NCBI GenBank assembly: GCA_946500615.1
Contig: CAMMWP010000002.1
Location: forward strand, 29,968 to 93,967
DNA from: an uncultured Clostridium sp.
GTDB lineage: Bacteria > Bacillota > Clostridia > TANB77 > CAG-508
Length of the DNA stretch: 64,000 bases
Reading direction: 5' to 3'
Shown: one piece after another, positions 4,811-55,645 of the stretch
How positions within the stretch are numbered: the stretch's first letter is position 1
Layout: the number at the start of each line of letters is the position of its first letter
Position numbers and translations under genes: made by a program
Notes under the pieces: generated by a model
Told to the model about the DNA's origin: nothing
What the model saw: only the letters and a program-made list of their open reading frames with translations
Database searches by the model: none

Positions 4811-4834
4811 ATAGAAAGGGAAACAAATCAACCG

Positions 4835-6870: not shown

Positions 6871-6877
6871 ATTATAA

Positions 6878-7117
6878 TTAATCGGCTATATCAATATTAT
6901 CAAATAATTTATCATCGAAAAAATCTTTTAATTTCATATTTAATGCTTCACAAATATATTCTATCATATCAAGTCTAATTATTTTTCTTTTGCCTGATAA
7001 AAATTTAGATAAAGTTGAGCGAGAAATACCAGCCAATGTAGAAAGTTTTGATACATTGAGATTATTTTCATTTATTAAATTAGTAATTCTCATTCTAACT
7101 GCTTCTGATAAATCCAC
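6878..7117 (-). CDS. Small XRE-family HTH regulator
   Basis: 79 aa with LSTLAGISRSTLSKFLSGKR helix-turn-helix. Confidence 0.6.
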   Translation of the reverse strand: MDLSEAVRMRITNLINENNLNVSKLSTLAGISRSTLSKFLSGKRKIIRLDMIEYICEALNMKLKDFFDDKLFDNIDIAD

Positions 7118-7181
7118 TCTAAAATCTCCTTTTATATAGTATTCCTATTAAAGAAAATTTTAACAAAAAACATATTTACAT

Positions 7182-7439
7182 TTGTTGACAAACGCCAACA
7201 TTTTTAGTATTATTTATACAGAAAGGTGCAGTAAAATGGAACAAATAAATAAAGAATTCGATGTGCCATATTACATATTTGAAGAAATAGTTAATTATGT
7301 TGAATTAACAGCACATGGAAAAAATAAAAGTATGAAATGGGAAAATATAAAAATGCTATTAGGATTAGCAAAAGTAAATGATAGATTAACAAGTGAACAA
7401 GTTGAATTTCTTATAAATAAATATAACAGGGAATTATAG
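7182..7439 (+). CDS. Hypothetical protein
   Basis: ORF with a likely start at MEQINKEF (7237). Located downstream of a ttgaca promoter-like box. Confidence 0.35.
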   Translation: MLTNANIFSIIYTERCSKMEQINKEFDVPYYIFEEIVNYVELTAHGKNKSMKWENIKMLLGLAKVNDRLTSEQVEFLINKYNREL

Positions 7440-7472
7440 TTCAATAATTTACAAAAGAAGGGGGATGAATAA

Positions 7473-7559
7473 ATGGACGGAAAAGGAAAATGGTGGAAAG
7501 TGATTTTAGGTATAGGACTTTTAGTTGGTGGATGTATCTTAGTTGCTATAACAGCATAA
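7473..7559 (+). CDS. 28-aa hydrophobic peptide MDGKGKWWKVILGIGLLVGGCILVAITA
   Basis: Strong RBS aagggggatgaataaATG. Single TM segment. Not in the ORF track because it is under 60 aa. Confidence 0.35.
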   Translation: MDGKGKWWKVILGIGLLVGGCILVAITA

Positions 7560-7598
7560 ACATTTTAAAAATTATAGAGAGGAAAGAGGAATATTTAT

Positions 7599-8060
7599 AT
7601 GAATATGAAATTAAAAAATCAAACAGGAATAAGTTTAATGAAAGTAATAATTATCGTAGCAGTAATAATTATAGGAATAGTAATCATTAGTGCGATTACA
7701 AGTAAACCGGGTTACGAGTTAAGTGTAGAAAAAAGCGAACCAGTTGCATATACAAATTTAAGATATTCTATTGCACAGGCAGCTGCAAGTAGTGGTGGTG
7801 CTAGTACATTAAAAAGCGAATATATTGATACACTTGGAAAATTAGTAAAAAGTGCAGATAGTAATAATCAATGGTTTTCAAGTAATAGTGGTGTGTTTTA
7901 TGGTGGAACAGCAGATACTTCTGATTATCAATATACTTGGATTTCAAACGGAACTTATTGTGCAACATTTTGTATAAAACAAGAGGGCAATACATATTAT
8001 TTATGTGATTTTAAATTTTCAACTGATACTGTAAAAGGTTATACACTTTTTGTTGAGTAA
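7599..8060 (+). CDS. Hypothetical secreted or membrane-anchored protein with a pilin-like N-terminus
   Basis: N-terminus MKLKNQTGISLMKVIIIVAVIIIGIVI: short basic leader, a Gly, then a roughly 20-residue hydrophobic stretch. No E at +5, so it is not a canonical prepilin. Confidence 0.4.
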   Translation: MNMKLKNQTGISLMKVIIIVAVIIIGIVIISAITSKPGYELSVEKSEPVAYTNLRYSIAQAAASSGGASTLKSEYIDTLGKLVKSADSNNQWFSSNSGVFYGGTADTSDYQYTWISNGTYCATFCIKQEGNTYYLCDFKFSTDTVKGYTLFVE

Positions 8061-8353
8061 TATGGATAATATAACGATAAAATAATAAAAAGTAGAAGAT
8101 ATTATCAATTTATCTTCTATTTTTGTAAATTTATATAGAAAAATAATCATAAAATAAAAATAAATAGCGGTAATTAGTATTATACAGGTGTTTTTAGGGA
8201 TTTTATATTTTAGTAAAGGTAATTTCATAGGTAATATATTAAAAGTGTTTAAAATTAAAATTACGACCACGTTTTTTATAAAAGTTCATAAAAAAGAAAA
8301 ATGTAAATATGTTTTATGAATTTTTTCTGTGTTTAGCAATATCAAACTGTTTT

Positions 8354-8542
8354 TTAATATATGGTCTGCCGACTAACAGGAATAATATTGCGAATATACC
8401 AGTTTTCTGCATTATCACTCATACGAGCCATAATTGTTTTATTCCAGTGTTTTATTTGTTCCTCTGACATTGGAACTTTTGAACAAGAGGATAATTGCAC
8501 AATATTAATAATATCTATATCATCTAAATCTGGTTTGTTCAT
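8354..8542 (-). CDS. Hypothetical protein (62 aa)
   Basis: Good RBS aaaggtggtg upstream on the minus strand. Confidence 0.35.
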   Translation of the reverse strand: MNKPDLDDIDIINIVQLSSCSKVPMSEEQIKHWNKTIMARMSDNAENWYIRNIIPVSRQTIY

Positions 8543-33517: not shown

Positions 33518-33874
33518 ATGAAAAATATAAGTAAAAAAATCATAATAGGATTATTAGCTGGAATAGTCAGTGGACTTTTTTCAACAGGAGGCGGAATGAT
33601 TGTTGTTCCAGCATGTATCTATTTGTTAAATATGGAAGATAAAAAGGCAAGAGGAACATCGATATTTTGTATATTACCAATGGTAGTGACAAGTGGTATC
33701 TTTTATTATAAAAGTAATTATATTGACTGGAATATTTCCATATTATGTGCAATAGGTGGGATGATAGGCGGATATATTGGTGCAAAGGCATTAAAAAAGA
33801 TGCCAGTTCAGTACTTAAAAATTGCATTTACAATTTTTTTACTATATGCATCTTATAAAATGTTTTTTAAGTAA
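33518..33874 (+). CDS. TSUP (TauE/SafE) family transporter, N-terminal half (4 TM)
   Basis: GLFSTGGGMIVVP motif. Followed in the same frame, after a single TAA, by the second half. Confidence 0.6.
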   Translation: MKNISKKIIIGLLAGIVSGLFSTGGGMIVVPACIYLLNMEDKKARGTSIFCILPMVVTSGIFYYKSNYIDWNISILCAIGGMIGGYIGAKALKKMPVQYLKIAFTIFLLYASYKMFFK

Positions 33875-33883
33875 GAGGAAGAA

Positions 33884-34285
33884 ATGGTAGAGATTTTAAT
33901 TGGGATTATATCTGGAATGATTAGTGGAACAGGAATGGGAGGAGGGACAATATTAATCTTTCTCCTTGTATATTTGTTAGGTATAGAGCAACATATTGCT
34001 CAAGCCACTAACCTCATTTTTTTTATACCAACTTCGATAATTGCGATTATCATTAATTCTAAGAATAAAAATATTGCTTTACAAAGTGCTATTTTTATTT
34101 CTGTATTTGGTATATTAGGAGCGATTATTGGAGCAAATATATCTATACGAATTGATGTCAATATATTAAGAAAATGTTTTGGGATTTTTTTGGCAATAAT
34201 TGCGATACATGAAATATATACCATTGTAAAATGGTATAAAAAAAAGAAATTAAGAGATAATAAGGAAAATGGATTTATAAAATAA
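33884..34285 (+). CDS. TSUP (TauE/SafE) family transporter, C-terminal half (4 TM)
   Basis: GTGMGGGTILIFLL motif. Own RBS gaggaag. Confidence 0.6.
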   Translation: MVEILIGIISGMISGTGMGGGTILIFLLVYLLGIEQHIAQATNLIFFIPTSIIAIIINSKNKNIALQSAIFISVFGILGAIIGANISIRIDVNILRKCFGIFLAIIAIHEIYTIVKWYKKKKLRDNKENGFIK

Positions 34286-35206: not shown

Positions 35207-36598
35207 TTAAATAAAAAATATTTTCATATTATAATCCTTATCTATTACTACGTAATCAATCACAGATAGCCAAATTCTTCTTTTTTCTATTCGAGATAAC
35301 GAATTATATACTAAATTAAAATCATTGCTTAAAAACGATTTTAAAGCGTCTAGGTTTGTATCTGGAATATTAGTTTCTATTTTTTCCTGTTGTTTATATA
35401 ATTCATCTAGTTGTGCAACATATTCTTTATAATCTTTTTCATAATCTTCAATCCTTATTAAATCTCTTACATATAAATCTTTTAATTTAGACAATTTGTT
35501 TTCTACAGAAGTTATTTCTTTTGACATATCAATTTCTTTAAAGTGTTTTTCTTTGTATTCATAATCAGAAACATATTTTTTTAATTGGATATTAAATTCT
35601 TGTAAAAGTTTTTCTTCTATTTTTACTTCATTAAAATTCACATTGCAAGAGCATTTCATTGTTAAATGATGTCTTTTACAAATGTAATAATATTTAGAAC
35701 TTTCGGGATTTTTAGAATAGAATTTTCCGCCTAACCTATAACCACATTCAGCACATTTTAAAAGTCCTTGAAAAATATATCCACCAGAATTTTCGGCAGA
35801 TGGTTTTCTTGCATTTTTACTTAACAATCTTTGTGTATTTTCAAAATCTATTTTATTAATTATAGCAGGACAAAAATCTTCAATATCTCCATATCTAGTT
35901 TTCTTAATTCCTATATATAATTTATTAGTAAGTATTCTATATACCCTCATATAATTCAATTGTAGTTCTGGATATTTTAAATCTAATTTTTGAAAAGTTT
36001 GATAAGCACTAGTAGTTTCTTTATAAAACTGAAATGCATCTAAAACTACTTGTTTTTTATCTTCATCGATGACAAGTTTTTTATCTTGTTTTTTTAATCC
36101 AACTGGGATTTTTCCGCTAATCAATTCTTTACTTTCTACCTTTGTTTTAAATACACTTCTAATTCTTTCAGAAGTTTGAGCAGACTCGTTTTCGGCGACA
36201 GAAAGCATGATGTTTATATGCAATCTACCACTAGCTGTAGAACTATCATATTTTTCAAAAATAGTTTGCCAAAATACACCGTGTTCATCTAAAACATCTA
36301 ATACTTTATAATAGTTTCTAACACCACGAGAAAGACGATCTAGTTTAGTTATAAGTATTCTGTTTATCTTGTTTTGCTCAACATCTTTTAAAAGTCTTTG
36401 TAAAGCAGGTCTTTTTAAGTTAGTAGCAGAAAAACCGTCATCTTCATAAATTCCATAAATGTGAAAACCATTCTTTAAAGCATATTTAGTTAATTCTTCT
36501 CTTTGCGTTCTTAAACTATCTCCATTAATGGCTTGCTCTTCTGTACTAACTCTAACATATAAAGCTACTTCTTCAGTAACATTTTTAACATTTTCCAT
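35207..36598 (-). CDS. Large serine recombinase (phage integrase)
   Basis: N-terminal resolvase domain ALYVRVSTEEQ (catalytic Ser), recombinase domain, Zn-ribbon CxxC...CxxC, coiled-coil C-terminus. 463 aa. Confidence 0.85.
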   Translation of the reverse strand: MENVKNVTEEVALYVRVSTEEQAINGDSLRTQREELTKYALKNGFHIYGIYEDDGFSATNLKRPALQRLLKDVEQNKINRILITKLDRLSRGVRNYYKVLDVLDEHGVFWQTIFEKYDSSTASGRLHINIMLSVAENESAQTSERIRSVFKTKVESKELISGKIPVGLKKQDKKLVIDEDKKQVVLDAFQFYKETTSAYQTFQKLDLKYPELQLNYMRVYRILTNKLYIGIKKTRYGDIEDFCPAIINKIDFENTQRLLSKNARKPSAENSGGYIFQGLLKCAECGYRLGGKFYSKNPESSKYYYICKRHHLTMKCSCNVNFNEVKIEEKLLQEFNIQLKKYVSDYEYKEKHFKEIDMSKEITSVENKLSKLKDLYVRDLIRIEDYEKDYKEYVAQLDELYKQQEKIETNIPDTNLDALKSFLSNDFNLVYNSLSRIEKRRIWLSVIDYVVIDKDYNMKIFFI

Positions 36599-37236
36599 TA
36601 TTCAAAAGCTCCTTTTATTTTTGCTTCTTTAACTCTACCAATTATTTTAATAGGAATACTTTTCATATCCTCAAAAGTGAATTTTTTAATAGGATAATAT
36701 GGATTCATAGCATGTAATTCTATTCCTTCATTCGTCTTGATTACTTTTTTTACTGTTGCTTCTTCTCCGTTAATAAGAATAACAGCAGTTTGCCCACTTT
36801 CAACATCATCTTGGTCATGTACTATAACTAAGTCTCCATCACTAAGAAGAGGGAGCATACTATCTCCAGTTACTTTTAATGCAAAATACTCATTTATGTT
36901 TTTTTCATAATCTTTTATAGTATCTCTATCAGTTATATATCCAATTACATTTTCTTCTGCTAACCAATTATATCCAGCTTTTACTGTTCCTAAAATTGGT
37001 ATACTTTTATTAGAATTTGAATTGCTTTCTACTAAATCAGATTTTTGTATTCCAAAATAGTTAGCCAATATTTGTATCTTATCTATACGAGGATATATGT
37101 TGCCGTTATACCAATCTGTTAATGTAGAATAAGGTATCTCTAAATCTCTAGCAACATCGTTCCTATCTTTATTGTTAAGTCTCATATATCTTCTTAAATT
37201 TCTTGAAAAAATTTCTTTATTTCCTAAATCGCTCAT
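36598..37236 (-). CDS. cI-like repressor with an S24 LexA-type autopeptidase domain
   Basis: N-terminal HTH and C-terminal GDSMLP (Ser) ... VKKVI (Lys) dyad. Confidence 0.8.
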   Translation of the reverse strand: MSDLGNKEIFSRNLRRYMRLNNKDRNDVARDLEIPYSTLTDWYNGNIYPRIDKIQILANYFGIQKSDLVESNSNSNKSIPILGTVKAGYNWLAEENVIGYITDRDTIKDYEKNINEYFALKVTGDSMLPLLSDGDLVIVHDQDDVESGQTAVILINGEEATVKKVIKTNEGIELHAMNPYYPIKKFTFEDMKSIPIKIIGRVKEAKIKGAFE

Positions 37237-37312: not shown

Positions 37313-37341
37313 TTGACAACGGAGAAACCGTCGTATATAAT
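37313..37341 (+). promoter_or_regulatory. Consensus promoter TTGACA, 17-bp spacer, TATAAT, with flanking ACGG-N5-CCGT operator palindromes (37320-37332, 37355-37367)
   Basis: Perfect -35/-10 hexamers. Two near-identical palindromes overlap and follow the promoter, between the cI and cro genes. Confidence 0.6.
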
Positions 37342-40025: not shown

Positions 40026-40796
40026 ATGGAAAGTCCTAATTATTACGCAATTATACCTGCAAAAGTACGATATGACAAGGAATTAATGGCTAACGCAAAA
40101 TTGTTATACAGTGAAATAACGGCACTATGTAATGAGAAAGGAATATGCTGGGCAGGAAATGAATATTTTGCCAATTTATATGGCGTTAGTAAAGAGACAA
40201 TATCAAGATGGATTAGTCAGTTAAATAAAAAAGGATATATATACATCACATTTTTTTATAAAAAAGACTCTAAAGAAATAGACAAAAGAATAATTTCTTT
40301 AGTTAATATCGAAAATCAAGGGGGTATTGACGAAATCGTCAAGGGGTATTGTCAAAAAAATCAAGGGGGTATTGACGAAAACATCAAAGAGAATAATACA
40401 AGTATTAATAATAAAAAAGAAAAAGAAGAAGCATATAAAAAAATTATAGAATTTTATGAAAACAATATCACGTTAATCACACCATTTGTTTCAGAAGATA
40501 TTGATAAATTTTTAAAAGTAGATAACTTAGAAGAAGATCTAATAATCGAAGTAATGAAAGAGGCAGTTTCGAGAAATAAAAGAAATTGGAAATATATATC
40601 CACAATTCTAGTTAATTGTGTGGATAACAATATAAAAACAGCAAAACAATTTAGAATCAGTCAAGAAGAATTTAAGTCGAATAAAAATCAAAACAACAAG
40701 AAAGATGAAACAAAAGAAGAGGAAATAGAATACAAAGAATGCACAATGACAGAAGAAGAATACTTTAAAAAACTGAGAGGAGAAAAGGATGTATGA
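40026..40796 (+). CDS. Phage replisome organizer / DnaD-like replication initiator, with iterons inside the gene
   Basis: N-terminal phage_rep_org_N-like HTH (ANLYGVSKETISRWISQLNKKGYIYI). Internal DNA direct repeats at 40313-40380. Confidence 0.6.
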   Translation: MESPNYYAIIPAKVRYDKELMANAKLLYSEITALCNEKGICWAGNEYFANLYGVSKETISRWISQLNKKGYIYITFFYKKDSKEIDKRIISLVNIENQGGIDEIVKGYCQKNQGGIDENIKENNTSINNKKEKEEAYKKIIEFYENNITLITPFVSEDIDKFLKVDNLEEDLIIEVMKEAVSRNKRNWKYISTILVNCVDNNIKTAKQFRISQEEFKSNKNQNNKKDETKEEEIEYKECTMTEEEYFKKLRGEKDV

Positions 40797-42009
40797 TGAA
40801 GAAATTGAAAAAACAGTACTTTACTACATAATTTTCAAAAATGAAGAATTAGACATAGAAGAATCAGACTTTATAAACATGAAGAATAAATTAATAGCAA
40901 AAGCAATAGAAGAATTAAAACTAGAAAAGGAAGATATATCAATTTTAGCGGTACAAAATAAAATAAAAGGAAATCAAAAGCAAATTTTAGAGTACATATC
41001 AAATTTAGGAAATAACATCTATGGAATAACAGCAGAAGGTTGCTATAACAGATTAAAAGAATTTTCTAAAAAAAGAAAAGTATTCGAATTAGCACAAAAT
41101 ATTTTAGCAAATGTTACAGAAGAGGAAAATATAGATATATATATTCAAGATTGTATAGACAAATTAAATAATATCGAAAAGATAAATACAAAAGAGAAAA
41201 CATTTATAGAACAAATAGCAGAAACAACAAGCGAGATAGAAAAGAATTATAACAATAGAAATGATTATAGTCTATATACAGGAATTTTTGATTTAGATAA
41301 ATTAACATGTGGATTACATAATCAAGAATTAACAATTATTGGAGCAAGACCAGGAATGGGAAAAACGACATTAACATTACAGATAGCACAAAATATAGCA
41401 AAAGAAAAAAATGTTGTATTTGTGAGTTTAGAAATGTCCCAAACTCAGTTAATTCAAAAAATGATAGCAAAACAGAGCATAGTTAATAGTTACAAAATGC
41501 GACTAGGAACACTTGAAGAAGGAGATTGGGAAAAGATAGCAAAAGCAAGCGTACAATTATCTGAATTAAATTTGACAATAAATACAAGAGTTAGAACAAT
41601 ACAAGACATAGAAGTTATGGCTAAGAGATTAAAAAATAAAGATAAATTAGATTTATTGATAATAGATTATATTCAACTACTAAAAAGTCAAGGAAAATTT
41701 AATTTAAGAGAACAAGAGGTAGCAGAAATAAGTAGAAGACTAAAACTATTAAGCTTAGAAATAAATATTCCAATAATTGCACTTTGCCAATTAAACAGAA
41801 ATGCAAACATAGGAGAGCCAACATTAGCGGACTTAAGAGAAAGTGGAAGTTTAGAACAGGATGCAGATAATATAATTTTTATTTATAAAGAAAATGAAGA
41901 GGATAATATTACAACATTAAAACTAGCAAAACAGAGAGCAGGAGACATTGGAAAAGTAAAAGTTAAATTTAATAAACAACTAAGTACATTCGTGAATTTA
42001 GTGAGGTGA
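40789..42009 (+). CDS. DnaB-type replicative helicase
   Basis: GARPGMGKTTLTLQIA Walker A. DnaB C-terminal RecA-like domain (IIDYIQLL, SGSLEQDAD). Confidence 0.8.
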   Translation: MYDEEIEKTVLYYIIFKNEELDIEESDFINMKNKLIAKAIEELKLEKEDISILAVQNKIKGNQKQILEYISNLGNNIYGITAEGCYNRLKEFSKKRKVFELAQNILANVTEEENIDIYIQDCIDKLNNIEKINTKEKTFIEQIAETTSEIEKNYNNRNDYSLYTGIFDLDKLTCGLHNQELTIIGARPGMGKTTLTLQIAQNIAKEKNVVFVSLEMSQTQLIQKMIAKQSIVNSYKMRLGTLEEGDWEKIAKASVQLSELNLTINTRVRTIQDIEVMAKRLKNKDKLDLLIIDYIQLLKSQGKFNLREQEVAEISRRLKLLSLEINIPIIALCQLNRNANIGEPTLADLRESGSLEQDADNIIFIYKENEEDNITTLKLAKQRAGDIGKVKVKFNKQLSTFVNLVR

Positions 42010-42424: not shown

Positions 42425-42546
42425 TAGAAAATGAATAAATGTAATAATTGTGCAAAATTCTTAACATGTAACAGAAAAGAATGTGATCAAGTAACTTTTT
42501 TACAAGCAAAACAATTAGATAAATTAGAAGTAAAGGAGAAGAAAAA

Positions 42547-43197
42547 ATGAAAAATAAAATAATTAAAATAGTTAGTATGATAGCAATAATAATAACAATA
42601 ATAGGAGTAACAACTCCAACAATTTATGCAAGAGCTCATTCACGTGGTGCAAGAAGTAGTGGTTCGCATAGTAGTGTAAAGTCTAGTACACCAAAAAGTT
42701 CTACTAAAAGTAGTACAAGTAGCTCTGTAAAAGCTAGTACTCCAAAATCTAGTACAACAAAAAGTAGCACATCAGGAAAAAGCTATACAACAACTAAAAG
42801 TAGTTCTGGAAGGACAACAGTTAGTCACGATACAGTTAAACCAAAGACAGATTCAACTGGAAAATCAACAATAGTTAATAATAATCCAACATATTATACA
42901 ACATACAGTACAGACACAGGATTTTCTCTAACAAATAGTATATTTCAATTTTATATGTTGGATCAAATATTTTCTGACAAAGAAAAAGTAACAGAACAAG
43001 ATGTAGCAAAAGCATTAGAAGAAAGAGGATACAGTAAAGAAGAAGTAGATCAAATTCTAGACGAAGCAAGAACAGAAGAAAAAGCAAATAAACCATTTTA
43101 TGATGGTTGGAAATGGTATAATTGGCTACTATTTGTAGTTATTATATTAGCGATAATTGGAGGAGTAGTAGAATTAGCTATATGGTTAACATGGTGA
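42547..43197 (+). CDS. Secreted Ser/Thr-rich protein with a C-terminal TM anchor (first gene of the K+ channel operon)
   Basis: Signal peptide, long S/T/K low-complexity region, C-terminal WYNWLLFVVIILAIIGGVV TM. Stop overlaps the next start. Confidence 0.5.
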   Translation: MKNKIIKIVSMIAIIITIIGVTTPTIYARAHSRGARSSGSHSSVKSSTPKSSTKSSTSSSVKASTPKSSTTKSSTSGKSYTTTKSSSGRTTVSHDTVKPKTDSTGKSTIVNNNPTYYTTYSTDTGFSLTNSIFQFYMLDQIFSDKEKVTEQDVAKALEERGYSKEEVDQILDEARTEEKANKPFYDGWKWYNWLLFVVIILAIIGGVVELAIWLTW

Positions 43198-43901
43198 GAA
43201 AAAAGTTATTTAAGATAGTTGAAAAAGATACAACATATTACGAATGGTATGACATATTAATACTAATTTGCATATGGATTAGTATAATTCCGTTAACGTT
43301 TAAAGAACAAAATAATTTTACATATATTCTAACAATTTTAACAACAATAGTATTTGTGATTGATTATATGTTGAGATGGATAACGTCAGATTTTAGGTTA
43401 AAAAAAGGAATAGATAGCTTTATAAAATATCCATTTACGATTTCAGCAATATTTGATTTAGTAGTTATCTTATCATGTTTTAGTGAAATATTTAACAGTT
43501 CATATATTTTAAGAATATTTAGCATATTTAGAATATTAAGAATAGCAAAAACATTAAGATATTCTAGTAAATTTGAAATAATTAAGAACGTAGTCAACAA
43601 AAATAAAAAAATATTAGAGGTAGTATGTGGATTTACAGCAGGATTTATATTCATTTCAGCATTAATAATGTTTCAGTTTGAAAATCAAAGCTTTAAGAAT
43701 TTTTTTGAAGCAATATACTGGTCTACAACAGTATTAACAACAGTAGGATATGGAGACATATGTCCTAAGACAGAAATAGGAAGATTGATAAGTATAATAT
43801 CTAGTTTAGTAGGAATTGCATTTGTAGCACTTCCTACAGGAATTATAACAAGTGGATTTGTAGAAGAATTAAATAGAGAAAAGGAGAATGATGAAAAATG
43901 A
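43182..43901 (+). CDS. Voltage-gated-type (6TM) potassium channel
   Basis: S4-like helix LRIFSIFRILRIAKTLRYS with R/K at every third position. Pore helix plus selectivity filter TTVGYGD. S5/S6 present. Confidence 0.75.
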   Translation: MVNMVRKKLFKIVEKDTTYYEWYDILILICIWISIIPLTFKEQNNFTYILTILTTIVFVIDYMLRWITSDFRLKKGIDSFIKYPFTISAIFDLVVILSCFSEIFNSSYILRIFSIFRILRIAKTLRYSSKFEIIKNVVNKNKKILEVVCGFTAGFIFISALIMFQFENQSFKNFFEAIYWSTTVLTTVGYGDICPKTEIGRLISIISSLVGIAFVALPTGIITSGFVEELNREKENDEK

Positions 43902-44512
43902 AAAAAATAACAAAATTAAAAATAGTATTTGATAGGATATTTAATAAATTTGTAAAGGTAGACAATATTGAAAAAATAGAAGAGGGACTAAATAGACAAA
44001 AAGAAGCTTTAAAGAATTTAAATAACAGCTATTATAATGCACAAGGAGCATTAGAATCTTATAAAAATGAATTAAAGAAAAACCAAGAAAATGAAAAGAA
44101 GTTAAATAAATGTTTTGAGATTTGTAAAACAAAAAATGATAAAGAGGGAGCTAAGCAAATATTTGAAGAATTAAATACAACAAAACAAAGAATTATAGTT
44201 TTAAAAGAGCAAAGTCAAAAACAAGAATTAATAGTTCAAAGATTCAAAGAAGCAAAAGAAAGATATGAAAAAGAAATAAGAAACTTACAAAATAATTTAG
44301 AAACAATGAAATCTAAAAATAGATTTAGTAAAGCTGTAAAAGAATATGAAAGTCAATTTGGAGAATTTGAAGAATTTAATATAGATGATATACAAAAAGA
44401 TATAGACATAGAATTTAATGCAAGTAATGCACAACTTCAAGAACAAGAAAATAAAATTGATTTAGATCAACTAGAAAATGAATCAAATTTTGAAGAAATG
44501 TGGGGGAAATAA
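43898..44512 (+). CDS. Coiled-coil protein (PspA/IM30-like?) translationally coupled to the channel gene
   Basis: ATGA overlap with the channel stop. 204 aa all-helical K/E-rich. Confidence 0.4.
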   Translation: MKKITKLKIVFDRIFNKFVKVDNIEKIEEGLNRQKEALKNLNNSYYNAQGALESYKNELKKNQENEKKLNKCFEICKTKNDKEGAKQIFEELNTTKQRIIVLKEQSQKQELIVQRFKEAKERYEKEIRNLQNNLETMKSKNRFSKAVKEYESQFGEFEEFNIDDIQKDIDIEFNASNAQLQEQENKIDLDQLENESNFEEMWGK

Positions 44513-45045
44513 TGAGGGAATATATTACAAAGAAAGAATATGAAGAGATTATAAAAGAAAAAGAAAGATTCAAAAAATTGTTTCAAGTACTAAAAATAGA
44601 CTCCGAAGAGATTATCAAAGAAGAAAGAAAAAATAATAAAATTACATATTTTTGTATAGTAAGCAATAAAGAAAAAACATATATAATATTTTACAATTCT
44701 GATAGTGAAGACTTAATACAAGTCTTACTATCAGAAGAAATCAATATATATGACTATCTAGAAGAAAATTTAATAGAAGAGGTTAATGTAGAAAAGCCAC
44801 AAGATAACTTTAATTACAGAGGATTTAATTTTAAATATTTGGAAGAGCCATATTTCATAAATCAAATTTTTGAAGGAATAAAATTTGAAAGTACAGAACT
44901 TATAAAAGAAATAGATCAAGAAATAAAATTCTATAAAGATAAAATTACAGAGGAAAGACAAGAGATATTTGATTATACAAAAACAAATAATATTTTAAAT
45001 AAATATAAATTCGAAATTGAGGAGAAATTAAATGAAAAAGACTAA
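44500..45045 (+). CDS. Acidic hypothetical protein (operon member)
   Basis: Overlapping start with the previous gene. Confidence 0.4.
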   Translation: MGEIMREYITKKEYEEIIKEKERFKKLFQVLKIDSEEIIKEERKNNKITYFCIVSNKEKTYIIFYNSDSEDLIQVLLSEEINIYDYLEENLIEEVNVEKPQDNFNYRGFNFKYLEEPYFINQIFEGIKFESTELIKEIDQEIKFYKDKITEERQEIFDYTKTNNILNKYKFEIEEKLNEKD

Positions 45046-45247
45046 ATATTTTAATAAAGATATTTACGAAACAGAAAAGAAAATAAAAACAGCATTTATA
45101 ATACTAATCATATTTCTATTAGGTTTATACATAGGACTAGCAATAAATTATTTAGAGATACAAAACAAAGAGCAAAAAATACGAGAATATCAAGTAGAGA
45201 TAGATAGTTTAAAAGAAACAATATACTTGATAGAAAGGAAGAATTAA
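45032..45247 (+). CDS. Small single-TM protein (operon member)
   Basis: TM helix AFIILIIFLLGLYIGLAINYL. Confidence 0.4.
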   Translation: MKKTKYFNKDIYETEKKIKTAFIILIIFLLGLYIGLAINYLEIQNKEQKIREYQVEIDSLKETIYLIERKN

Positions 45248-50762: not shown

Positions 50763-51263
50763 TTGAAGAGTAAGGAGGAACAAATGACTAAACCAGAATT
50801 AATAGAATTGTTAAAAAGTTATAAAGAAAATAAAGCTAAATTAAATATAAGACTAAAAGAATTAAAACTAGCAAGGATAAAGCTAAAATCATTAGAAGAG
50901 GTAGATGTTAATTTATCTGTAGCATATGGATTAAATCAAGATATACATAGTAAGAATAAAATATCTGACAAAGTGGGAAGACAAGTAGAAGAAAATGATA
51001 GTAAAAGAAGAGAATTAGAAGAGGAAATTAAAGAGCTAGAAAAAACAGTAAGAGAATTAAGAGATAAAGTAGAATCAGTAGATGACAGATTAGAATGTTT
51101 AAAATACAGAGAAAAAGAAATACTTTATGCTTATTACATAGAAGGTAGAACATATCAAGATATAGGTGATAATTTATACTTTAAATTGTTTCACCAAACA
51201 AGAGATGGTGATACTATTAAAGATATAGTAAAAGAAGCAACCAAAAAAATGATAAATTTATAA
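50763..51263 (+). CDS. ArpU/RinA-family phage late-gene transcriptional activator (sigma-like)
   Basis: C-terminal region-4-like REKEILYAYYIEGRTYQDIGDNL. Positioned upstream of the packaging module. Confidence 0.55.
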   Translation: MKSKEEQMTKPELIELLKSYKENKAKLNIRLKELKLARIKLKSLEEVDVNLSVAYGLNQDIHSKNKISDKVGRQVEENDSKRRELEEEIKELEKTVRELRDKVESVDDRLECLKYREKEILYAYYIEGRTYQDIGDNLYFKLFHQTRDGDTIKDIVKEATKKMINL

Positions 51264-51979: not shown

Positions 51980-52056
51980 TGCGGAATGGAGAAGAGGTCA
52001 ATCTCGCTAGTCTCATAAGCTAGAGATCGTAAGTTCGAATCTTACTTCTGCAACCA
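51980..52056 (+). tRNA. tRNA-Met (anticodon CAT; could alternatively be tRNA-Ile2 lysidine type), phage-encoded
   Basis: Manual fold: acceptor tgcggaa/ttctgca, D-stem gaga/tctc, anticodon stem ctagt/gctag with loop ctCATaa, T-stem gtaag/cttac with loop TTCGAAT, discriminator A, CCA encoded. Confidence 0.7.
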
Positions 52057-52585: not shown

Positions 52586-52660
52586 TTGGGAATAGTTAAA
52601 TTGGTATAACAACAGGCTTTGACCTTGTCATTCTTAGTTCGAGTCTAAGTTCCCAAGCCA
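52586..52660 (+). tRNA. tRNA-Gln (anticodon TTG), phage-encoded
   Basis: Manual fold: acceptor ttgggaa/ttcccaa, D-stem gtta/taac, anticodon stem acagg/cttgt with loop ctTTGac, T-stem cttag/ctaag with loop TTCGAGT, CCA encoded. Confidence 0.7.
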
Positions 52661-53552: not shown

Positions 53553-53942
53553 GTGGAAGAAGATGAAAATATTTTAGGTTTAAGTGGACAAGAATTAATA
53601 GAAAAAAACAAAACAATAAAAAAAGAAGTGAATAGGTTAAAAAAATTATTTAAGGATTTAGAAGAAAACAAAAAGAAGCTAGCAAAAAGTTTAATTGAAA
53701 ATGCAGCCTTTATGTCTATAACCTTAGAAGATTTAAAAAAGGATATTGTTAAATACGGAGTAAAAGAAACATATGTAAATGGAAGAGACCAATATGGATT
53801 TAAAGAATCAATTGAAAGTAAAACATATAATACTATGATAAAAAATTATATGAATATAATAAAACAGTTGAATGATATGATGCCAGAACAAAAAAAAATA
53901 GATGAGGATGATGAATTTAAGAAATTCAATGGTTTATCATGA
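53553..53942 (+). CDS. terS: Terminase small subunit (P27 family)
   Basis: RBS aagaggaggtg, then GTG start (53553). ...LSGQELIEKNK...AAFMSITLEDLKKDIVKYG. Confidence 0.65.
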   Translation: MEEDENILGLSGQELIEKNKTIKKEVNRLKKLFKDLEENKKKLAKSLIENAAFMSITLEDLKKDIVKYGVKETYVNGRDQYGFKESIESKTYNTMIKNYMNIIKQLNDMMPEQKKIDEDDEFKKFNGLS

Positions 53943-55645
53943 TTACATATATAGAAGAATATTATCAATTTTTATTAAAAAATCCAGATAAGGCTTGCCG
54001 AAAAGTATTGATTACATACAAGAAACTTGTTCAAGATTTATATAATCTTAAACAGGTTTCTTTTTTTAATGAAATAACAGAAGAAGATGAAACACATACT
54101 TATATATTTGATATAAAAAAAGGTAATAGACCTATCGAGTTTATAGAAAGATTTTGTAAACATTCAAAAGGAAAGTGGGCAGGACAACCTGTTATTTTAG
54201 AATTGTGGCAAAAAGCTTTTATTCAAGCACTATTTGGATTTGTAGATAAGGATACAGGTTTAAGAAAATATAAAAAAGGAATCTTATTTGTTGGAAGAAA
54301 AAATGGAAAATCTACAATAGATGCAGGACTTGGTAATTATATGCTTACTTCTGCAGGAGAAGGAGGAGCAGAGGTCTATTCTGTAGCAACTAAAAAGGAT
54401 CAAGCTAAGGTTGTTTGGGAAGAAGCAAAAAGGATGATTAAGAAAAGTCCTGTTTTAGCAAAAAGGATAAGAACTTTAGTAAATGGATTATTTTATGATT
54501 CAACAGAAAGTTTCTTTAAAGCATTAGCCAGTGACAGTAATTCGCTAGATGGTTTAAATGCATTTTTTGTAATAGGGGATGAAATTCATGCTTGGAAAGA
54601 TAAAAATTTGCTTGATGTTATGTATGATTCTATGTCTGCTAGGGAAGAGCCACTTTTTCTTGAAACATCTACAATGGGAATTATAAGAGAAAGCGTCTTT
54701 GATAATGAATATGAATATGCTAGTTCAGTAATAGATGGATATGAAGACCTAGAAGGCGGAATAGAAGATGAAACAATTCTTGCGGTTATATATGAATTAG
54801 ACAATCAAAATGAGTGGCAAGATGAGAAAAAATGGTATAAAGCAAATCCTGGTTTAGGAACAATTAAAAATATAAGAGATTTAAGAGACAAAGTAAATAG
54901 AGCTAAAAACAATCCAACAGAGCTATCTAATTTACTTTGTAAAGACTTTAATGTTAGACAAAACGAACAGGATAAGTGGTTAACATTTGATATAGCTAAC
55001 AATGAAGAGGTTTATAATTTAGAGGAATTGTTTGATACTTATGCAATTGGGGGAGCTGATTTATCTAGTACAACAGATTTAACATGTGCAACGTTAGTTA
55101 TAGTTAAACATAATAAAAAATATGTAATACAGCAGTATTTTATACCTTCTGAAAGACTAGAATTTAAGATAAAAGACGATAAAATTCCATATGATAAATG
55201 GGAAAAGAGAGGACTAGTTACAATATGTGATGGAGCTAAAGTGAATTATAGTGATGTAACACAATGGTTTTTGAGAATGTATGAAGATTATAATATTTCT
55301 ACATTATGGGTAGGATATGACCCTTGGAATACACAATATTGGGTAGAAGAAATGAAAGAATATGGATTTAATATGATAGAGGTAAGACAAGGAGCTAAAA
55401 CAATGTCTAATCCGATGAAACAATTAGAAGCGGATTTGATTGAAAAGAATGTGAATTATAATAATAATCCAATTTTAAAATGGTGTTTATGTAATACATC
55501 TGTAAAAAGAGATGAAAATGATAATATAAGACCAGTTAAAGGACAAAAACAAAGAGCAAGAATTGATGGCACAGTAAGTTTGATAATAGCTTACTGTGTT
55601 TTATTTGAAAAAATGCAAGATTATCTAGTATTGCAGGAGGAATAA
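53939..55645 (+). CDS. terL: Terminase large subunit
   Basis: 568 aa. ATPase Walker A (LFVGRKNGKS) and C-terminal nuclease domain. Confidence 0.85.
   Translation: MITYIEEYYQFLLKNPDKACRKVLITYKKLVQDLYNLKQVSFFNEITEEDETHTYIFDIKKGNRPIEFIERFCKHSKGKWAGQPVILELWQKAFIQALFGFVDKDTGLRKYKKGILFVGRKNGKSTIDAGLGNYMLTSAGEGGAEVYSVATKKDQAKVVWEEAKRMIKKSPVLAKRIRTLVNGLFYDSTESFFKALASDSNSLDGLNAFFVIGDEIHAWKDKNLLDVMYDSMSAREEPLFLETSTMGIIRESVFDNEYEYASSVIDGYEDLEGGIEDETILAVIYELDNQNEWQDEKKWYKANPGLGTIKNIRDLRDKVNRAKNNPTELSNLLCKDFNVRQNEQDKWLTFDIANNEEVYNLEELFDTYAIGGADLSSTTDLTCATLVIVKHNKKYVIQQYFIPSERLEFKIKDDKIPYDKWEKRGLVTICDGAKVNYSDVTQWFLRMYEDYNISTLWVGYDPWNTQYWVEEMKEYGFNMIEVRQGAKTMSNPMKQLEADLIEKNVNYNNNPILKWCLCNTSVKRDENDNIRPVKGQKQRARIDGTVSLIIAYCVLFEKMQDYLVLQEE

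What the first reader, a model, noticed from the sequence alone, without database searches (positions are those of the whole stretch)
43182..43901. Prophage-encoded 6TM potassium channel with an S4-like voltage sensor and a GYGD filter
S1-S3 hydrophobic helices are present. The S4 helix ILRIFSIFRILRIAKTLRYS has R/K at every third position. The pore helix plus TTVGYGD selectivity filter and S6 follow, in only about 240 aa (KvAP/KvLm-like, with no cytoplasmic domains). Viral K+ channels are well known in chlorella viruses but rare in bacteriophages. The start codon overlaps the stop of the upstream gene.
Basis: partly seen in the sequence, partly recalled or inferred. Interest (0 to 1): 0.65.

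Follow-up and report, generated by a model that had tools for sequence, protein, structure and literature searches.

The report
Phage-borne voltage-sensor potassium channel gene
A prophage in a low-GC gut bacterium carries an intact, conserved gene for a small potassium channel with a voltage sensor, sitting next to a likely membrane-repair (PspA-like) gene, which suggests that some phages tune the electrical state of the host membrane.

Summary
ORF 43182-43901 (+) encodes a 239-aa six-helix Kv-type K+ channel: Pfam Ion_trans 2.5e-26, best solved relatives KCNQ2/Kv2.1/Kv1.2, AF2 pLDDT 83.7, TM-score up to 0.75 to Kv channels. It has a TTVGYGD filter, an invariant charge-transfer centre (F58, D61, D92) and five S4 charges, with Ser at the R2 position. 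It has no cytoplasmic domains and is under purifying selection (dN/dS 0.15-0.22).

It lies inside a prophage, in a tightly overlapping gene string downstream of a consensus early promoter, so lytic-cycle expression is inferred.

New context:
- It sits in a cassette: surface membrane protein, channel, probable PspA/Vipp1-like protein, 181-aa acidic protein. The cassette is conserved across mosaic prophages and a 124-kb phage-like contig.
- A channel-less version of the cassette exists, so the channel is an optional insert.
- The cassette clade has lost S4 charges that more distant relatives keep.
- More distant relatives (38-49% identity) are chromosomal in gut bacteria, or sit between repressor and integrase in many temperate phages.

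Phage K+ channels have been reported before, and a PHROG family of unknown function matches this protein. I found no description of a sensor-bearing phage channel. Physiological role is inferred only. Verdict: real, a new variant of a known kind, moderately interesting.

The parts
43182..43901 (+). Kv-type 6TM K+ channel gene (239 aa). An alternative start is ATG 43191, which forms ATGGTGA with the upstream stop.
   Evidence: Pfam Ion_trans 2.5e-26 and Ion_trans_2 2.5e-17. PDB KCNQ2 1.5e-23. AF2 pLDDT 83.7. Foldseek TM-score 0.72-0.75 to Kv4.2, Kv2.1 and Shaker. dN/dS 0.15-0.22.
43503..43562 (+). S4 voltage-sensor helix (residues 108-127) with R111, S114, R117, R120, K123 and R126.
   Evidence: Sequence. 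Helix 108-127 in the model. Column counts across 61 homologues.
43737..43757 (+). K+ selectivity filter TTVGYGD (residues 186-192).
   Evidence: Sequence. L185, T186, T187, G189, Y190, G191 and D192 are invariant in 61 sequences.
42547..43197 (+). Cassette gene 1 (216 aa). It has an N-terminal signal or anchor helix, a Ser/Thr-rich stalk, a conserved C-terminal region with an RGY..EEVD motif, and a C-terminal TM anchor. It is probably exposed on the cell surface.
   Evidence: phrog_30129 9.4e-17. Co-conserved with the channel. Weak DivIVA-motif hit. Topology is inferred from the sequence.
43898..44512 (+). Cassette gene 3 (204 aa), a probable divergent PspA/IM30/Vipp1-like (ESCRT-III superfamily) coiled-coil protein.
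   Evidence: The family profile against PDB puts Vipp1/PspA in the top four, E 0.026-0.045, collinear 8-148 with 8-150. The AF2 model is a helical hairpin 7-78 / 82-139 plus three helices. Foldseek ranks 1-9 are all Vipp1/PspA chains, E 3e-3 to 0.09. Pfam PspA_IM30 hits 12 of 28 members, best E 0.0018.
44500..45045 (+). Cassette gene 4 (181 aa from GTG 44500, or 177 aa from ATG 44512 in a TAATG overlap). Acidic (pI 4.7), soluble, no known family.
   Evidence: No Pfam, PHROG, PDB or PADLOC match. Co-conserved with the cassette. Junction sequence.
45032..45247 (+). Small single-TM protein (71 aa) following the cassette. Conserved only in the closest relatives.
   Evidence: ORF list. 74-78% identity in L001-L003 only.
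42432..42550 (+). 39-aa Cys-rich ORF whose TGA overlaps the start of cassette gene 1 (ATGA).
   Evidence: Sequence. A 39-aa gene is called at the same place in L001-L004.
37313..37341 (+). Perfect sigma-70 consensus promoter (TTGACA-17-TATAAT) facing the early genes. It is the probable early lytic promoter.
   Evidence: 12 of 12 match. The only + strand terminator-like site before 47 kb is one weak site inside a gene at 40151. Function is inferred.
36598..37236 (-). CI/LexA-type repressor (HTH plus Peptidase_S24).
   Evidence: Pfam. phrog_4 4.9e-37.
35207..36598 (-). Large serine integrase, marking the left end of the prophage.
   Evidence: Resolvase, Recombinase and Zn_ribbon_recom domains. 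phrog_95 2.6e-109.
40026..42009 (+). Replication module: DnaD-like helicase loader (40026-40796) and DnaB-like helicase (40789-42009).
50763..51263 (+). Sigma-70 region-4-like protein, a candidate late-gene regulator downstream of the channel.
   Evidence: Pfam Sigma70_r4 8.5e-06. The role is inferred.
53939..55645 (+). Large terminase subunit, marking the start of the late packaging and structural genes.
   Evidence: TerL_ATPase and TerL_nuclease. About 51% identity to Bacillus and Caldibacillus phage terminases.

Best explanation
The gene encodes a functional tetrameric voltage-sensor-bearing K+ channel of the prokaryotic minimal Kv type: S1-S4 sensor, S4-S5 linker, then S5-P-S6 pore, with no cytoplasmic domain. 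It belongs to a temperate siphophage-like prophage.

It is an optional insert in a small phage 'envelope cassette'. The cassette consists of a surface-exposed bitopic membrane protein, a probable PspA/Vipp1-like membrane-binding protein and an acidic 181-aa protein. All are joined by overlapping stop and start codons inside the long early/middle operon. That operon starts at a consensus promoter next to the repressor gene.

The inferred working is as follows. After induction or infection the channel is inserted into the host cytoplasmic membrane. There it gives the membrane a K+ conductance gated by membrane voltage, which pulls the potential towards the K+ equilibrium potential. Paired with a PspA-like protein, whose established role is to limit ion leak and loss of proton-motive force in stressed membranes, the most coherent role is to buffer membrane potential and integrity during lytic development. 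That would guard against premature collapse caused by accumulating holin, by membrane-protein overload or by depolarising host abortive-infection effectors.

What is shown:
- channel identity and fold;
- intact filter and sensor residues;
- purifying selection;
- prophage location;
- cassette conservation and a channel-less variant.

What is inferred:
- K+ selectivity;
- gating polarity;
- timing of expression;
- the PspA-like assignment (likely, with marginal statistics);
- the physiological role.
For: Channel identity:
- Ion_trans 2.5e-26 over residues 21-231.
- KCNQ2, Kv2.1 and Kv1.2 at 1e-23 to 1e-15.
- AF2 pLDDT 83.7 with six TM helices plus a pore helix.
- Foldseek TM-score up to 0.75 to Kv2.1 and Kv4.2.

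Functional residues: F58, D61, R65, D92, TTxGYGD, P218 and G211 are invariant in 61 homologues.

Selection: dN/dS is 0.15-0.22, the lowest of the four cassette genes.

Prophage and operon:
- Integrase, repressor, replication genes and terminase are present.
- The consensus promoter lies at 37313-37341.
- Only one weak intragenic terminator-like site, at 40151, lies on the + strand before 47 kb.
- Promoter-like sites are no more frequent than in shuffles, so there is no sign of a dedicated promoter.
- Stop and start codons overlap at every cassette junction.

Cassette: the same four genes occur in prophages with different integrases, replication modules and terminases. They also occur in a 124-kb phage-like contig with DNA pol III alpha, RNR and RNA ligase.

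PspA-like neighbour.

Channel-less cassette: L166/L167.

Background knowledge:
- Bacterial minimal Kv channels such as KvLm are K+-selective and depolarisation-activated (PMC2151562).
- PspA is described as preventing membrane depolarisation (PMC12234005 discussion).
Against: - There are no expression, electrophysiology or phenotype data.
- Gating polarity cannot be read from sequence. The KvLm paper states this for Kv sensors generally, and a hyperpolarisation-activated archaeal model gives a weak sub-threshold hit.
- The cassette clade has lost one to three S4 charges. The sensor may therefore be weakened, and the channel could behave as a leak that depolarises the cell rather than protecting it.
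- The PspA-like assignment rests on marginal E-values (0.003-0.05) amid coiled-coil noise.
- The cassette works without the channel in some phages, so the functional link between the channel and its neighbours is not proven.
- More distant phage relatives sit in the lysogeny module. This points to a role in the lysogen for those relatives, and perhaps to a different general logic.
Confidence: 0.55

Rival explanations
1. Superinfection exclusion by depolarisation. The channel, whose sensor has lost charges, opens at resting potential and brings the membrane down to the K+ equilibrium potential. The surface protein encoded upstream acts at the envelope. Together they block DNA entry by other phages. 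The chlorovirus channel Kcv is proposed to prevent multiple infection in a similar way.
For: - Kcv-type channels are reported to limit hyperinfection (Greiner 2018, PMC6163359).
- The upstream gene encodes a probably surface-exposed membrane protein.
- S4 has lost charges in this clade.
- More distant phage relatives lie between repressor and integrase. That is the classic position of exclusion genes, which are expressed in the lysogen.
Against: - In this window the gene is in the early lytic string, not the lysogeny module.
- A PspA-like partner would oppose depolarisation.
- There is no match to known defence or exclusion models in PADLOC.
Confidence: 0.2
2. Abortive-infection or defence effector. 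The channel is the membrane effector of a phage-carried defence system, and the neighbouring soluble proteins act as sensors. This would resemble lambda RexA/RexB, or the membrane effectors of CBASS and type III CRISPR systems.
For: - The cassette moves as a unit between unrelated phage backbones.
- More distant relatives occur next to Abi_2 genes and in repressor-integrase positions.
- One relative lies in an island with a kinase, a PP2C phosphatase, a ClpB-like ATPase and radical-SAM/HxsD genes.
Against: - No PADLOC model matches the channel or the 216-aa and 181-aa neighbours. The 204-aa protein gives only weak coiled-coil matches.
- The channel is a canonical selective-filter Kv, not a toxin-like pore.
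- A cassette without the channel exists, so the channel cannot be its sole effector.
- It is placed in the early lytic operon.
Confidence: 0.12
3. Lysogenic-conversion gene for host K+ homeostasis. The channel is expressed in the lysogen and helps the host take up or release K+ in the gut, for example under osmotic or pH stress, which benefits host and prophage alike.
For: - Chromosomal relatives at 45-47% identity sit among housekeeping genes in gut Bacillota, so the family has a cellular role.
- K+ channels can support K+ uptake in E. coli mutants (KvLm and SynK papers, one search list).
Against: - There is no dedicated promoter or terminator signal, and the gene overlaps both of its lytic-operon neighbours.
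- It also occurs in a 124-kb phage-like contig beside DNA polymerase and RNR genes.
Confidence: 0.08
4. Decaying passenger gene. It was recently captured from a host and has no role for the phage.
For: It is gained or lost within an otherwise conserved cassette. S4 charges have been lost.
Against: - dN/dS is 0.15-0.22 across 67-79% identical copies, with dS near saturation.
- All pore and charge-transfer residues are invariant.
- The close clade comprises about 70 protein clusters at 90% identity, seen on many contigs.
Confidence: 0.03

Closest known systems
Prokaryotic minimal Kv channels (KvLm of Listeria monocytogenes, KvAP of Aeropyrum pernix)
   Same: They share a single 6TM subunit of about 240-295 aa, an S1-S4 sensor plus a GYGD pore, and no large cytoplasmic domain. 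KvLm is K+-selective and depolarisation-activated (PMC2151562). KvLm also works with few sensor charges, as the charge-poor relatives of this protein may.
   Different: This protein is encoded by a phage. By sequence and fold it is closer to the KCNQ, Kv2 and Kv4 cores than to any prokaryotic chain among the 60 PDB sequence hits listed or the 50 Foldseek matches listed. It keeps the full charge-transfer centre and five S4 charges, whereas KvLm has three of the eight conserved charges (abstracts). I did not align it directly to KvLm or KvAP.
KCNQ/Kv7 channels (transmembrane core)
   Same: These are the best sequence hits (1.5e-23) and share the pore and S6 motifs. The filter regions read TLTTIGYGD in KCNQ2 and VLTTVGYGD here. 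The S6 regions read FFALPAGILGSGF and FVALPTGIITSGF. Both also have an uncharged residue at one S4 position.
   Different: It has no C-terminal calmodulin-binding or tetramerisation helices and ends right after S6. Identity is about 22-25% in structural alignments. It is not a Kv7 orthologue.
Viral K+ channels of the Kcv type, and the phage K+ channels listed by Greiner et al. 2018
   Same: They are virus-encoded and carry the canonical G(Y/F)GD filter. Proposed roles involve the host's membrane potential (PMC6163359).
   Different: Kcv and the mycobacteriophage channels are pore-only proteins (2 TM, 79-156 aa). In the viral structure library the only K+ channel matches cover just the pore region, 74-117 aligned columns, all with E above 0.01. 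The word 'voltage' does not occur in that survey. This protein has a complete voltage-sensor domain.
PHROG phrog_7872 (unknown function) and Dulem virus 33 'Ion transport protein'
   Same: phrog_7872 gives a full-length match at 2.2e-36. Dulem virus 33 gives 42% identity over 96% of the length in a complete 40-kb phage genome.
   Different: Neither has a described function. In Dulem virus 33 the gene lies between the XRE repressor and the integrase. That is the lysogeny module, not an early lytic cassette.
Psp / Lia envelope-stress modules (PspA with membrane partners PspB/C, or LiaH with LiaI)
   Same: The cassette pairs a probable PspA/Vipp1-like protein with a small membrane protein encoded just upstream. 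The resemblance to Psp and Lia organisation is from my own knowledge.
   Different: It is phage-encoded, the sequence similarity is marginal, no PspF or LiaRS regulators are present, and a K+ channel gene is inserted between the two genes.
Lambda cI-rexA-rexB
   Same: For the more distant phage relatives, an ion-conducting membrane protein gene sits directly downstream of, and co-directional with, the repressor gene. The Rex comparison is from my own knowledge.
   Different: There is no sequence relationship. RexB is not a K+ channel fold. The gene in this window is not in the lysogeny module.

Membership tests
Voltage-gated cation channel superfamily, 6TM Kv type (Pfam Ion_trans PF00520) | Sequence match to the family model above the curated threshold, spanning S1-S6 | tested here: met
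   92.8 bits against a cut-off of 25, residues 21-231 on model positions 2-238 of 241.
Voltage-gated cation channel superfamily, 6TM Kv type (Pfam Ion_trans PF00520) | Six transmembrane helices with a re-entrant pore helix between S5 and S6 | tested here: met
   AF2 helices 18-39, 45-67, 78-103, 108-127, 142-166 and 198-238, plus pore helix 174-187. Hydropathy peaks. TM-score 0.72-0.75 to Kv4.2, Kv2.1 and Shaker.
Voltage-gated cation channel superfamily, 6TM Kv type (Pfam Ion_trans PF00520) | K+ signature sequence T-x-G-Y/F-G-D | tested here: met
   T187-V-G-Y-G-D192, invariant in 61 homologues.
Voltage-gated cation channel superfamily, 6TM Kv type (Pfam Ion_trans PF00520) | S4 with basic residues at every third position | tested here: met
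   R111, R117, R120, K123 and R126, with Ser at the R2 position.
Voltage-gated cation channel superfamily, 6TM Kv type (Pfam Ion_trans PF00520) | Charge-transfer centre: aromatic plus acidic residue in S2 and an acidic residue in S3 | tested here: met
   F58, D61 and D92 are invariant in 61 of 61 sequences. Assigning them to the Shaker F290, E293 and D316 positions is my inference from spacing and the KCNQ2 alignment.
Voltage-gated cation channel superfamily, 6TM Kv type (Pfam Ion_trans PF00520) | Tetrameric assembly, K+ selectivity and voltage-dependent opening | not testable with these tools
   Needs reconstitution or patch-clamp. Only a monomer model was made.
Kcv-type miniature viral K+ channels | Pore-only architecture (2 TM, about 80-130 aa) | tested here: not met
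   The protein is 239 aa with a full S1-S4 domain. The BFVD K+ channel matches (Kcv-like, pore-only proteins) align only to the pore region, 74-117 columns, all with E above 0.01.
KCNQ/Kv7 subfamily | C-terminal helices A-D (calmodulin binding, tetramerisation) | tested here: not met
   The protein ends at residue 239, directly after S6. The KCNQ alignments stop at residue 234.
MVP-type hyperpolarisation-activated K+ channel (NCBIfam NF040645) | Score above the equivalog cut-off | tested here: not met
   46.1 bits against a cut-off of 300.
Known anti-phage defence systems (PADLOC-DB 2.0) | Match of the channel or its neighbours to a defence-system model | tested here: not met
   No hit for the channel or for the 216-aa and 181-aa proteins. 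The 204-aa protein gives only weak coiled-coil matches (JetC, ZorA, E >= 3e-4).
PspA/IM30/Vipp1 family (ESCRT-III superfamily), for the 204-aa neighbour | Sequence match to PF04012 or to solved family members | tested here: inconclusive
   PF04012 is hit by 12 of 28 family members, best E 0.0018, and not by the window's own copy at E <= 5. The family profile puts Vipp1/PspA chains at the top of PDB, but at E 0.026-0.045.
PspA/IM30/Vipp1 family (ESCRT-III superfamily), for the 204-aa neighbour | Long alpha1 / alpha2-3 helical hairpin followed by shorter helices, with fold similarity to solved members | tested here: met
   Hairpin 7-78 / 82-139 with block-mean pLDDT 73-97 from residue 21 (52 or lower before that), then three helices. 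Foldseek ranks 1-9 are Vipp1/PspA chains, probability 0.99-1.0, 132-212 aligned columns, E 3e-3 to 0.09. The E-values are modest and helical hairpins are easy to match.
Prophage (temperate Caudoviricetes) gene | Located between the lysogeny/replication genes and the packaging genes of one element | tested here: met
   Integrase, repressor, DnaD/DnaB and TerL flank it. The same cassette occurs in IMG/VR viral contigs.

The most novel reading that the evidence does not exclude
Phages carry voltage-gated K+ channels as 'electrical' control devices. In this lineage a Kv channel is coupled to a phage-encoded PspA/ESCRT-III-like membrane stabiliser. The pair acts as a repolarising safety circuit that holds the host membrane potential during lytic growth. 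It would set lysis timing and neutralise host abortive-infection systems that kill by depolarisation, making it a new class of counter-defence. In a second set of temperate phages the same channel family, placed between repressor and integrase, is expressed in the lysogen. There it acts as a Rex-like exclusion device or as a membrane-potential sensor.
Probability: 0.2. Interest if true: 0.8.

Novelty: new variant of a known kind. Interest (0 to 1): 0.6.

Why it matters
Virus-encoded K+ channels have so far been studied as pore-only proteins (Kcv). A compact phage channel with a complete voltage sensor offers several things.

- It is a natural and experimentally tractable minimal Kv. The window's copy has five S4 charges, close relatives have three or four, and chromosomal cousins have six. 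That is a ready-made series for studying how many gating charges a sensor needs.
- It links phage biology to bacterial membrane electrophysiology. The genomic pairing with a probable PspA-like protein, and the recurrent repressor-channel-integrase layout in other gut phages, both make a testable prediction: phages manipulate host membrane potential for lysis timing, exclusion or counter-defence.
- It gives a function to a PHROG family currently labelled 'unknown function'.

Tried and rejected
- Megablast of 24 kb of the prophage against 50,697 phage records found no match, so no named close phage exists. TerL and DnaB tblastn gave at most 53% identity to phages of Bacillus, Clostridioides, Terrisporobacter and others.
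- The host species could not be named. The one genome-contig scan returned only relatives at 63% identity or less. Exact-sequence look-ups gave no organism names. What can be said is 24-34% GC and that the related loci retrieved come from ENA, Logan and NCBI assemblies.
- PADLOC gave no defence-system match.
- Single-sequence searches of the 204-aa and 181-aa neighbours against Pfam, PHROGs and PDB gave nothing. Only the family profile and the fold search brought out PspA/Vipp1.
- A dedicated promoter or terminator for the cassette was considered. Promoter-like sites are no more frequent than in shuffles (54 against 61.8 +/- 7.4), and no + strand terminator flanks the cassette. A stand-alone transcription unit was therefore rejected as unsupported.
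- The 123-nt 'gap' upstream of the 216-aa gene is filled by a 39-aa ORF.
- Literature searches for phage or prophage voltage-gated K+ channels, Kcv plus prophage, and PF00520 plus phage found nothing specific. A search for phage-encoded PspA also found nothing specific. One search failed on syntax.
- A second channel copy in the window was looked for and not found.
- The idea that the four cassette genes are inseparable was rejected after a channel-less cassette turned up.
Full report
**1. The observation**

The ORF is real. It runs from ATG 43182 to TGA 43901 on the + strand and encodes 239 aa. A second in-frame ATG at 43191 forms ATGGTGA with the upstream stop.

Pfam Ion_trans matches residues 21-231 in one stretch (E 2.5e-26, 92.8 bits against a cut-off of 25). 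Ion_trans_2 matches the pore half (2.5e-17). Against all PDB sequences the best hits are the transmembrane cores of KCNQ2 (1.5e-23, residues 18-234), KCNQ5, KCNQ4, Kv2.1, the Kv1.2-2.1 chimera, Kv4.2 and Shaker.

An AlphaFold2 model built on 61 homologues has mean pLDDT 83.7. It shows:
- an amphipathic N-terminal helix;
- S1 (18-39), S2 (45-67), S3 (78-103) and S4 (108-127);
- an 11-residue S4-S5 linker helix (130-140);
- S5 (142-166), a pore helix (174-187) and a long S6 (198-238).

Foldseek against PDB gives only Kv channels at the top. TM-scores reach 0.72-0.75 for Kv4.2, Kv2.1 and Shaker monomers. Together with the helical S4-S5 linker, this suggests the domain-swapped Kv1-Kv7 arrangement, which is my inference.

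There is no cytoplasmic domain. The protein ends at the end of S6.

**2. Functional residues**

Across 61 homologues the invariant residues include:
- F58, D61 and R65 in S2;
- D92 in S3;
- L185, T186, T187, G189, Y190, G191 and D192 in the filter;
- P218 in S6.

G220 in S6 is conserved in at least 90% of the sequences.

F58, D61 and D92 have the spacing of the Kv charge-transfer centre. That assignment is my inference, supported by the KCNQ2 alignment.

S4 in the window reads LRIFSIFRILRIAKTLRY, with R111, R117, R120, K123 and R126 and Ser114 at the R2 position.

The S6 motif ALPTGIITSGF resembles the KCNQ ALPAGILGSGF hinge.

Pairwise dN/dS against copies that are 79% and 71% identical is 0.15 and 0.22, the lowest of the four cassette genes. 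The gene is maintained by selection.

**3. Where it sits**

The window holds host genes up to about 34.3 kb. These include an aminotransferase, MgsA and two half-size TauE genes. A prophage follows:
- large serine integrase, 35207-36598 (-);
- CI/LexA-type repressor, 36598-37236 (-);
- a perfect TTGACA-17-TATAAT promoter facing rightwards, 37313-37341;
- DnaD-like loader and DnaB helicase, 40026-42009;
- the channel region;
- HNH, YopX and a sigma-70 region-4-like protein (50763-51263);
- two tRNAs;
- large terminase, 53939-55645.

No convincing + strand terminator lies between the promoter and 47 kb. Promoter-like sites are no more frequent than in shuffled sequence.

The genes around the channel are joined by overlapping stops and starts:
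- the 39-aa ORF and the 216-aa gene share ATGA;
- the 216-aa gene and the channel overlap by 7 or 16 nt;
- the channel and the 204-aa gene share ATGA;
- the 204-aa gene and the next gene share TAATG.

I therefore infer that the channel is translated as part of the early/middle lytic operon and is not an autonomous lysogenic-conversion unit. This is inference and there are no expression data.

**4. A conserved cassette**

Look-ups of contigs encoding 98%-, 78%- and 71%-identical channels show the same four genes in the same order:
1. a 213-231 aa membrane protein (phrog_30129);
2. the channel;
3. a 204-205 aa coiled-coil protein;
4. a 172-181 aa acidic protein.

The surrounding prophages differ in integrase (tyrosine or serine), in replication or recombination module (DnaD/DnaB, Gp157/AAA_24, RecT, ERF, primase) and in terminase.

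The cassette also occurs in a 124-kb contig beside a DNA polymerase III alpha (phrog_405), a helicase, a ribonucleotide reductase and an RNA ligase. That contig looks like a large phage.

Between clades the four proteins diverge together:

| Protein | Identity to 79% clade | Identity to 71% clade |
|---|---|---|
| Channel | 79% | 71% |
| 204-aa protein | 75% | 54% |
| 216-aa protein | 61% | 51% |
| 181-aa protein | 55% | 44% |

The 204-aa family is narrow. It has 60 clusters, and every full-length member is at least 52% identical.

**5. The neighbours**

The 216-aa protein has four parts:
- an N-terminal signal-like helix ending IYA/RA;
- a Ser/Thr-rich stretch;
- a conserved region containing an RGYSKEEVD motif, which gives a weak DivIVA-motif hit;
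- a C-terminal TM helix.

I infer that most of it lies outside the cell.

The 204-aa protein looked PspA-like by eye, and I tested this in three ways.
- A profile of 28 family members searched against PDB ranks Vipp1/PspA chains first to fourth. E-values are 0.026-0.045, the alignments are collinear (8-148 against 8-150), and CHMP2A appears lower down.
- The AF2 model is a long helical hairpin (7-78 and 82-139, block-mean pLDDT 73-97 from residue 21) followed by three shorter helices.
- Foldseek ranks 1-9 are all Vipp1/PspA structures, with E 3e-3 to 0.09 and probability 0.99-1.0. PspA entries 7abk, 4whe and 9hzm also appear.

Pfam PspA_IM30 is hit by 12 of 28 members (best E 0.0018), among unspecific coiled-coil hits. 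I rate 'PspA/IM30-like' as likely (about 0.6) but not proven.

The 181-aa protein has no detectable relatives outside the cassette.

**6. The channel is optional**

A search with the conserved C-terminal half of the 216-aa protein found 188-204 aa relatives. In two contigs (L166, L167) one of these, a 190-aa protein, is followed after 44 nt by the PspA-like gene and the acidic protein gene, with no channel. Identities to the window's proteins are 69%, 73% and 49%.

Nearly the same PspA-like protein also occurs next to a channel. P0373 and P0065 come from contigs of identical length, 24,801 bp. I did not check directly that they share a contig.

The membrane protein, the PspA-like protein and the acidic protein therefore form the core module. 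The channel has been gained or lost within it.

**7. The wider family**

An exhaustive HMMER search finds 17,441 cluster representatives at E <= 1e-3 and 160 at E <= 1e-30. Most are 230-260 aa.

Relatives at 38-50% identity occur in at least 559 species genomes, mostly gut and rumen Bacillota and Bacteroidota. Where I checked, their settings were:
- among housekeeping genes, for P0102 and P0100;
- in an island with radical-SAM/HxsD genes, a ClpB-like ATPase, a PP2C phosphatase and a kinase, for P0093;
- in prophages.

In phages these more distant relatives have a different, recurrent position, directly between an XRE/CI-type repressor and the integrase, all co-directional. This layout is seen in:
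- the complete circular genome of Dulem virus 33;
- locus L160;
- IMG/VR contigs. Among 37 dereplicated loci with a downstream neighbour, the next downstream ORF is a tyrosine integrase in 12 and a serine recombinase in 3. Among all 39 dereplicated loci, the next upstream ORF is an HTH_3-type protein in 15, four of them with Peptidase_S24.

These relatives all keep six S4 charges. The cassette clade has lost R2 (Ser in 15 of 15 sequences), and its sub-clades have also lost R1 (to T or Q) and R4 (to M or T), leaving three to five charges.

Phages have therefore taken up this channel family at least twice, into two different expression contexts.

**8. How it most likely works**

Shown: this is a selected, intact Kv-type channel gene in a phage early-region cassette.

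Established for the family: minimal bacterial Kv channels such as KvLm are K+-selective and open on depolarisation. The polarity of gating cannot be read from the sensor sequence (PMC2151562).

Inferred: the channel is made after induction or infection. It tetramerises in the host membrane and adds a voltage-dependent K+ conductance that pulls the membrane potential towards E_K.

If it is depolarisation-activated, K+ efflux would repolarise a membrane that starts to collapse. PspA-family proteins are described as preventing depolarisation of stressed membranes (discussion in PMC12234005). The two genes would then act in the same direction, keeping the membrane energised during phage replication. 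They would work against premature holin triggering, membrane-protein overload or depolarising abortive-infection effectors. I give this specific role about 0.35.

The main rival is exclusion by depolarisation (about 0.2). It fits the reduced S4 charge, the surface protein and the Kcv precedent (PMC6163359). A defence-effector role, host K+ homeostasis and a decaying passenger gene are less likely, for the reasons given under rival explanations.

**9. Comparison with what is known**

By membership tests the protein belongs to the 6TM Kv-type branch of the Ion_trans superfamily. Every sequence and fold criterion is met, and function is untested. It is not any of the following:
- a Kcv-type pore-only viral channel;
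- a KCNQ orthologue, since it has no C-terminal helices;
- an MVP equivalog, at 46 bits against 300;
- part of a catalogued defence system.

Phage K+ channel genes were reported by Greiner et al. 2018. That survey covered 2-TM mycobacteriophage proteins, 149-228 aa vibriophage proteins and a 259-aa Lactobacillus phage PLE protein, and it contains no mention of voltage sensors.

PHROG phrog_7872 already groups such proteins under 'unknown function'. One GenBank phage annotates its copy as 'Ion transport protein'.

In the viral structure library the only K+ channel matches are pore-only proteins aligning to the pore region. My literature searches found no paper describing a phage-encoded voltage-sensor K+ channel or a phage-encoded PspA homologue. 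The library is incomplete, so this is absence of evidence only.

**10. Verdict**

The protein itself is an ordinary member of a large prokaryotic family. What is new is its setting:
- a complete voltage-sensor K+ channel recurrently carried by phages;
- here, as an optional insert in a phage envelope cassette with a probable PspA-like protein;
- a charge-depleted S4;
- elsewhere, placement between repressor and integrase.

I rate it a new variant of a known kind, interest 0.6. The physiological role is open and directly testable.

Noticed in passing
window 43898-44512: The gene directly after the channel encodes a 204-aa coiled-coil protein that appears to be a divergent PspA/Vipp1 (ESCRT-III superfamily) homologue. 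I found no report of a phage-encoded PspA-like protein.
   Followed up: yes
L166 6001-7749; L167 1921-3669: A channel-less version of the cassette: a 190-aa membrane protein, 44 nt, a PspA-like 205-aa protein, then a 171-aa protein. The channel has therefore been gained or lost within a conserved three-gene module.
   Followed up: yes
L165 (Dulem virus 33) 4681-8514; L160 7444-10317; IMG/VR loci L099-L156: In the more distant phage relatives the channel lies between an XRE/CI-type repressor and the integrase, all co-directional. It was seen in a complete phage genome. In IMG/VR, the next downstream ORF is an integrase or recombinase in 15 of 37 dereplicated loci, and the next upstream ORF is an HTH_3-type protein in 15 of 39. 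The layout recalls lambda cI-rexAB.
   Followed up: partly
window 43503-43562 and alignment A2: S4 charges have been lost specifically in the cassette-linked phage clade. R2 is Ser in 15 of 15 sequences, R1 is T or Q in 10, and R4 is M or T in 8. All 46 more distant relatives keep basic residues at R2-R6, and 45 of 46 keep one at R1, the exception being an alignment gap.
   Followed up: partly
L161 1-18714 (contig of 123,857 bp): The same four-gene cassette sits in a large phage-like contig, right after DNA polymerase III alpha, a UvrD-like helicase and a ribonucleotide reductase, and before a T7 Gp5.9-like gene and an RNA ligase.
   Followed up: partly
L164 1-16705: A 46% relative of the channel lies in an island with HxsD/radical-SAM genes, DUF4236, a ClpB-like AAA ATPase, a PP2C phosphatase and a Ser/Thr kinase. 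DUF4236 proteins also neighbour the channel in three IMG/VR loci.
   Followed up: no
P0103 (271 aa): A 47% relative carries a SHOCT domain (PF09851) fused to the channel.
   Followed up: no
P0121, P0122, P0157, P0218: Very long proteins (1032-1748 aa) contain two to six tandem copies of this channel-type domain. P0121 is 37% identical to the window's channel, with three matched stretches. Origin unknown.
   Followed up: no
window 51980-52056 and 52586-52660: The prophage carries tRNA-Met (CAT) and tRNA-Gln (TTG) genes between the early region and the terminase.
   Followed up: no
window 33518-34285: Two adjacent half-size TauE/SafE genes lie just left of the prophage integrase. The first matches the C-terminal half of the Pfam model and the second matches the N-terminal half. 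It is unclear whether this is a natural split pair or is related to the integration site.
   Followed up: no
window 42432-42550: A 39-aa Cys-rich ORF (CxxC...C...C) overlaps the start of the 216-aa cassette gene by ATGA. It is conserved in the closest relatives, L001-L004.
   Followed up: no
L001 19365-19559; L006 15799-16053: Related prophages that carry the cassette also encode anti-defence-type genes (an Acb2/Tad1 hairpin protein and a Tad2-like protein) just upstream of the terminase.
   Followed up: no
window 50763-51263: A sigma-70 region-4-like 166-aa protein lies upstream of the tRNAs and terminase. It is a candidate late-gene activator.
   Followed up: no
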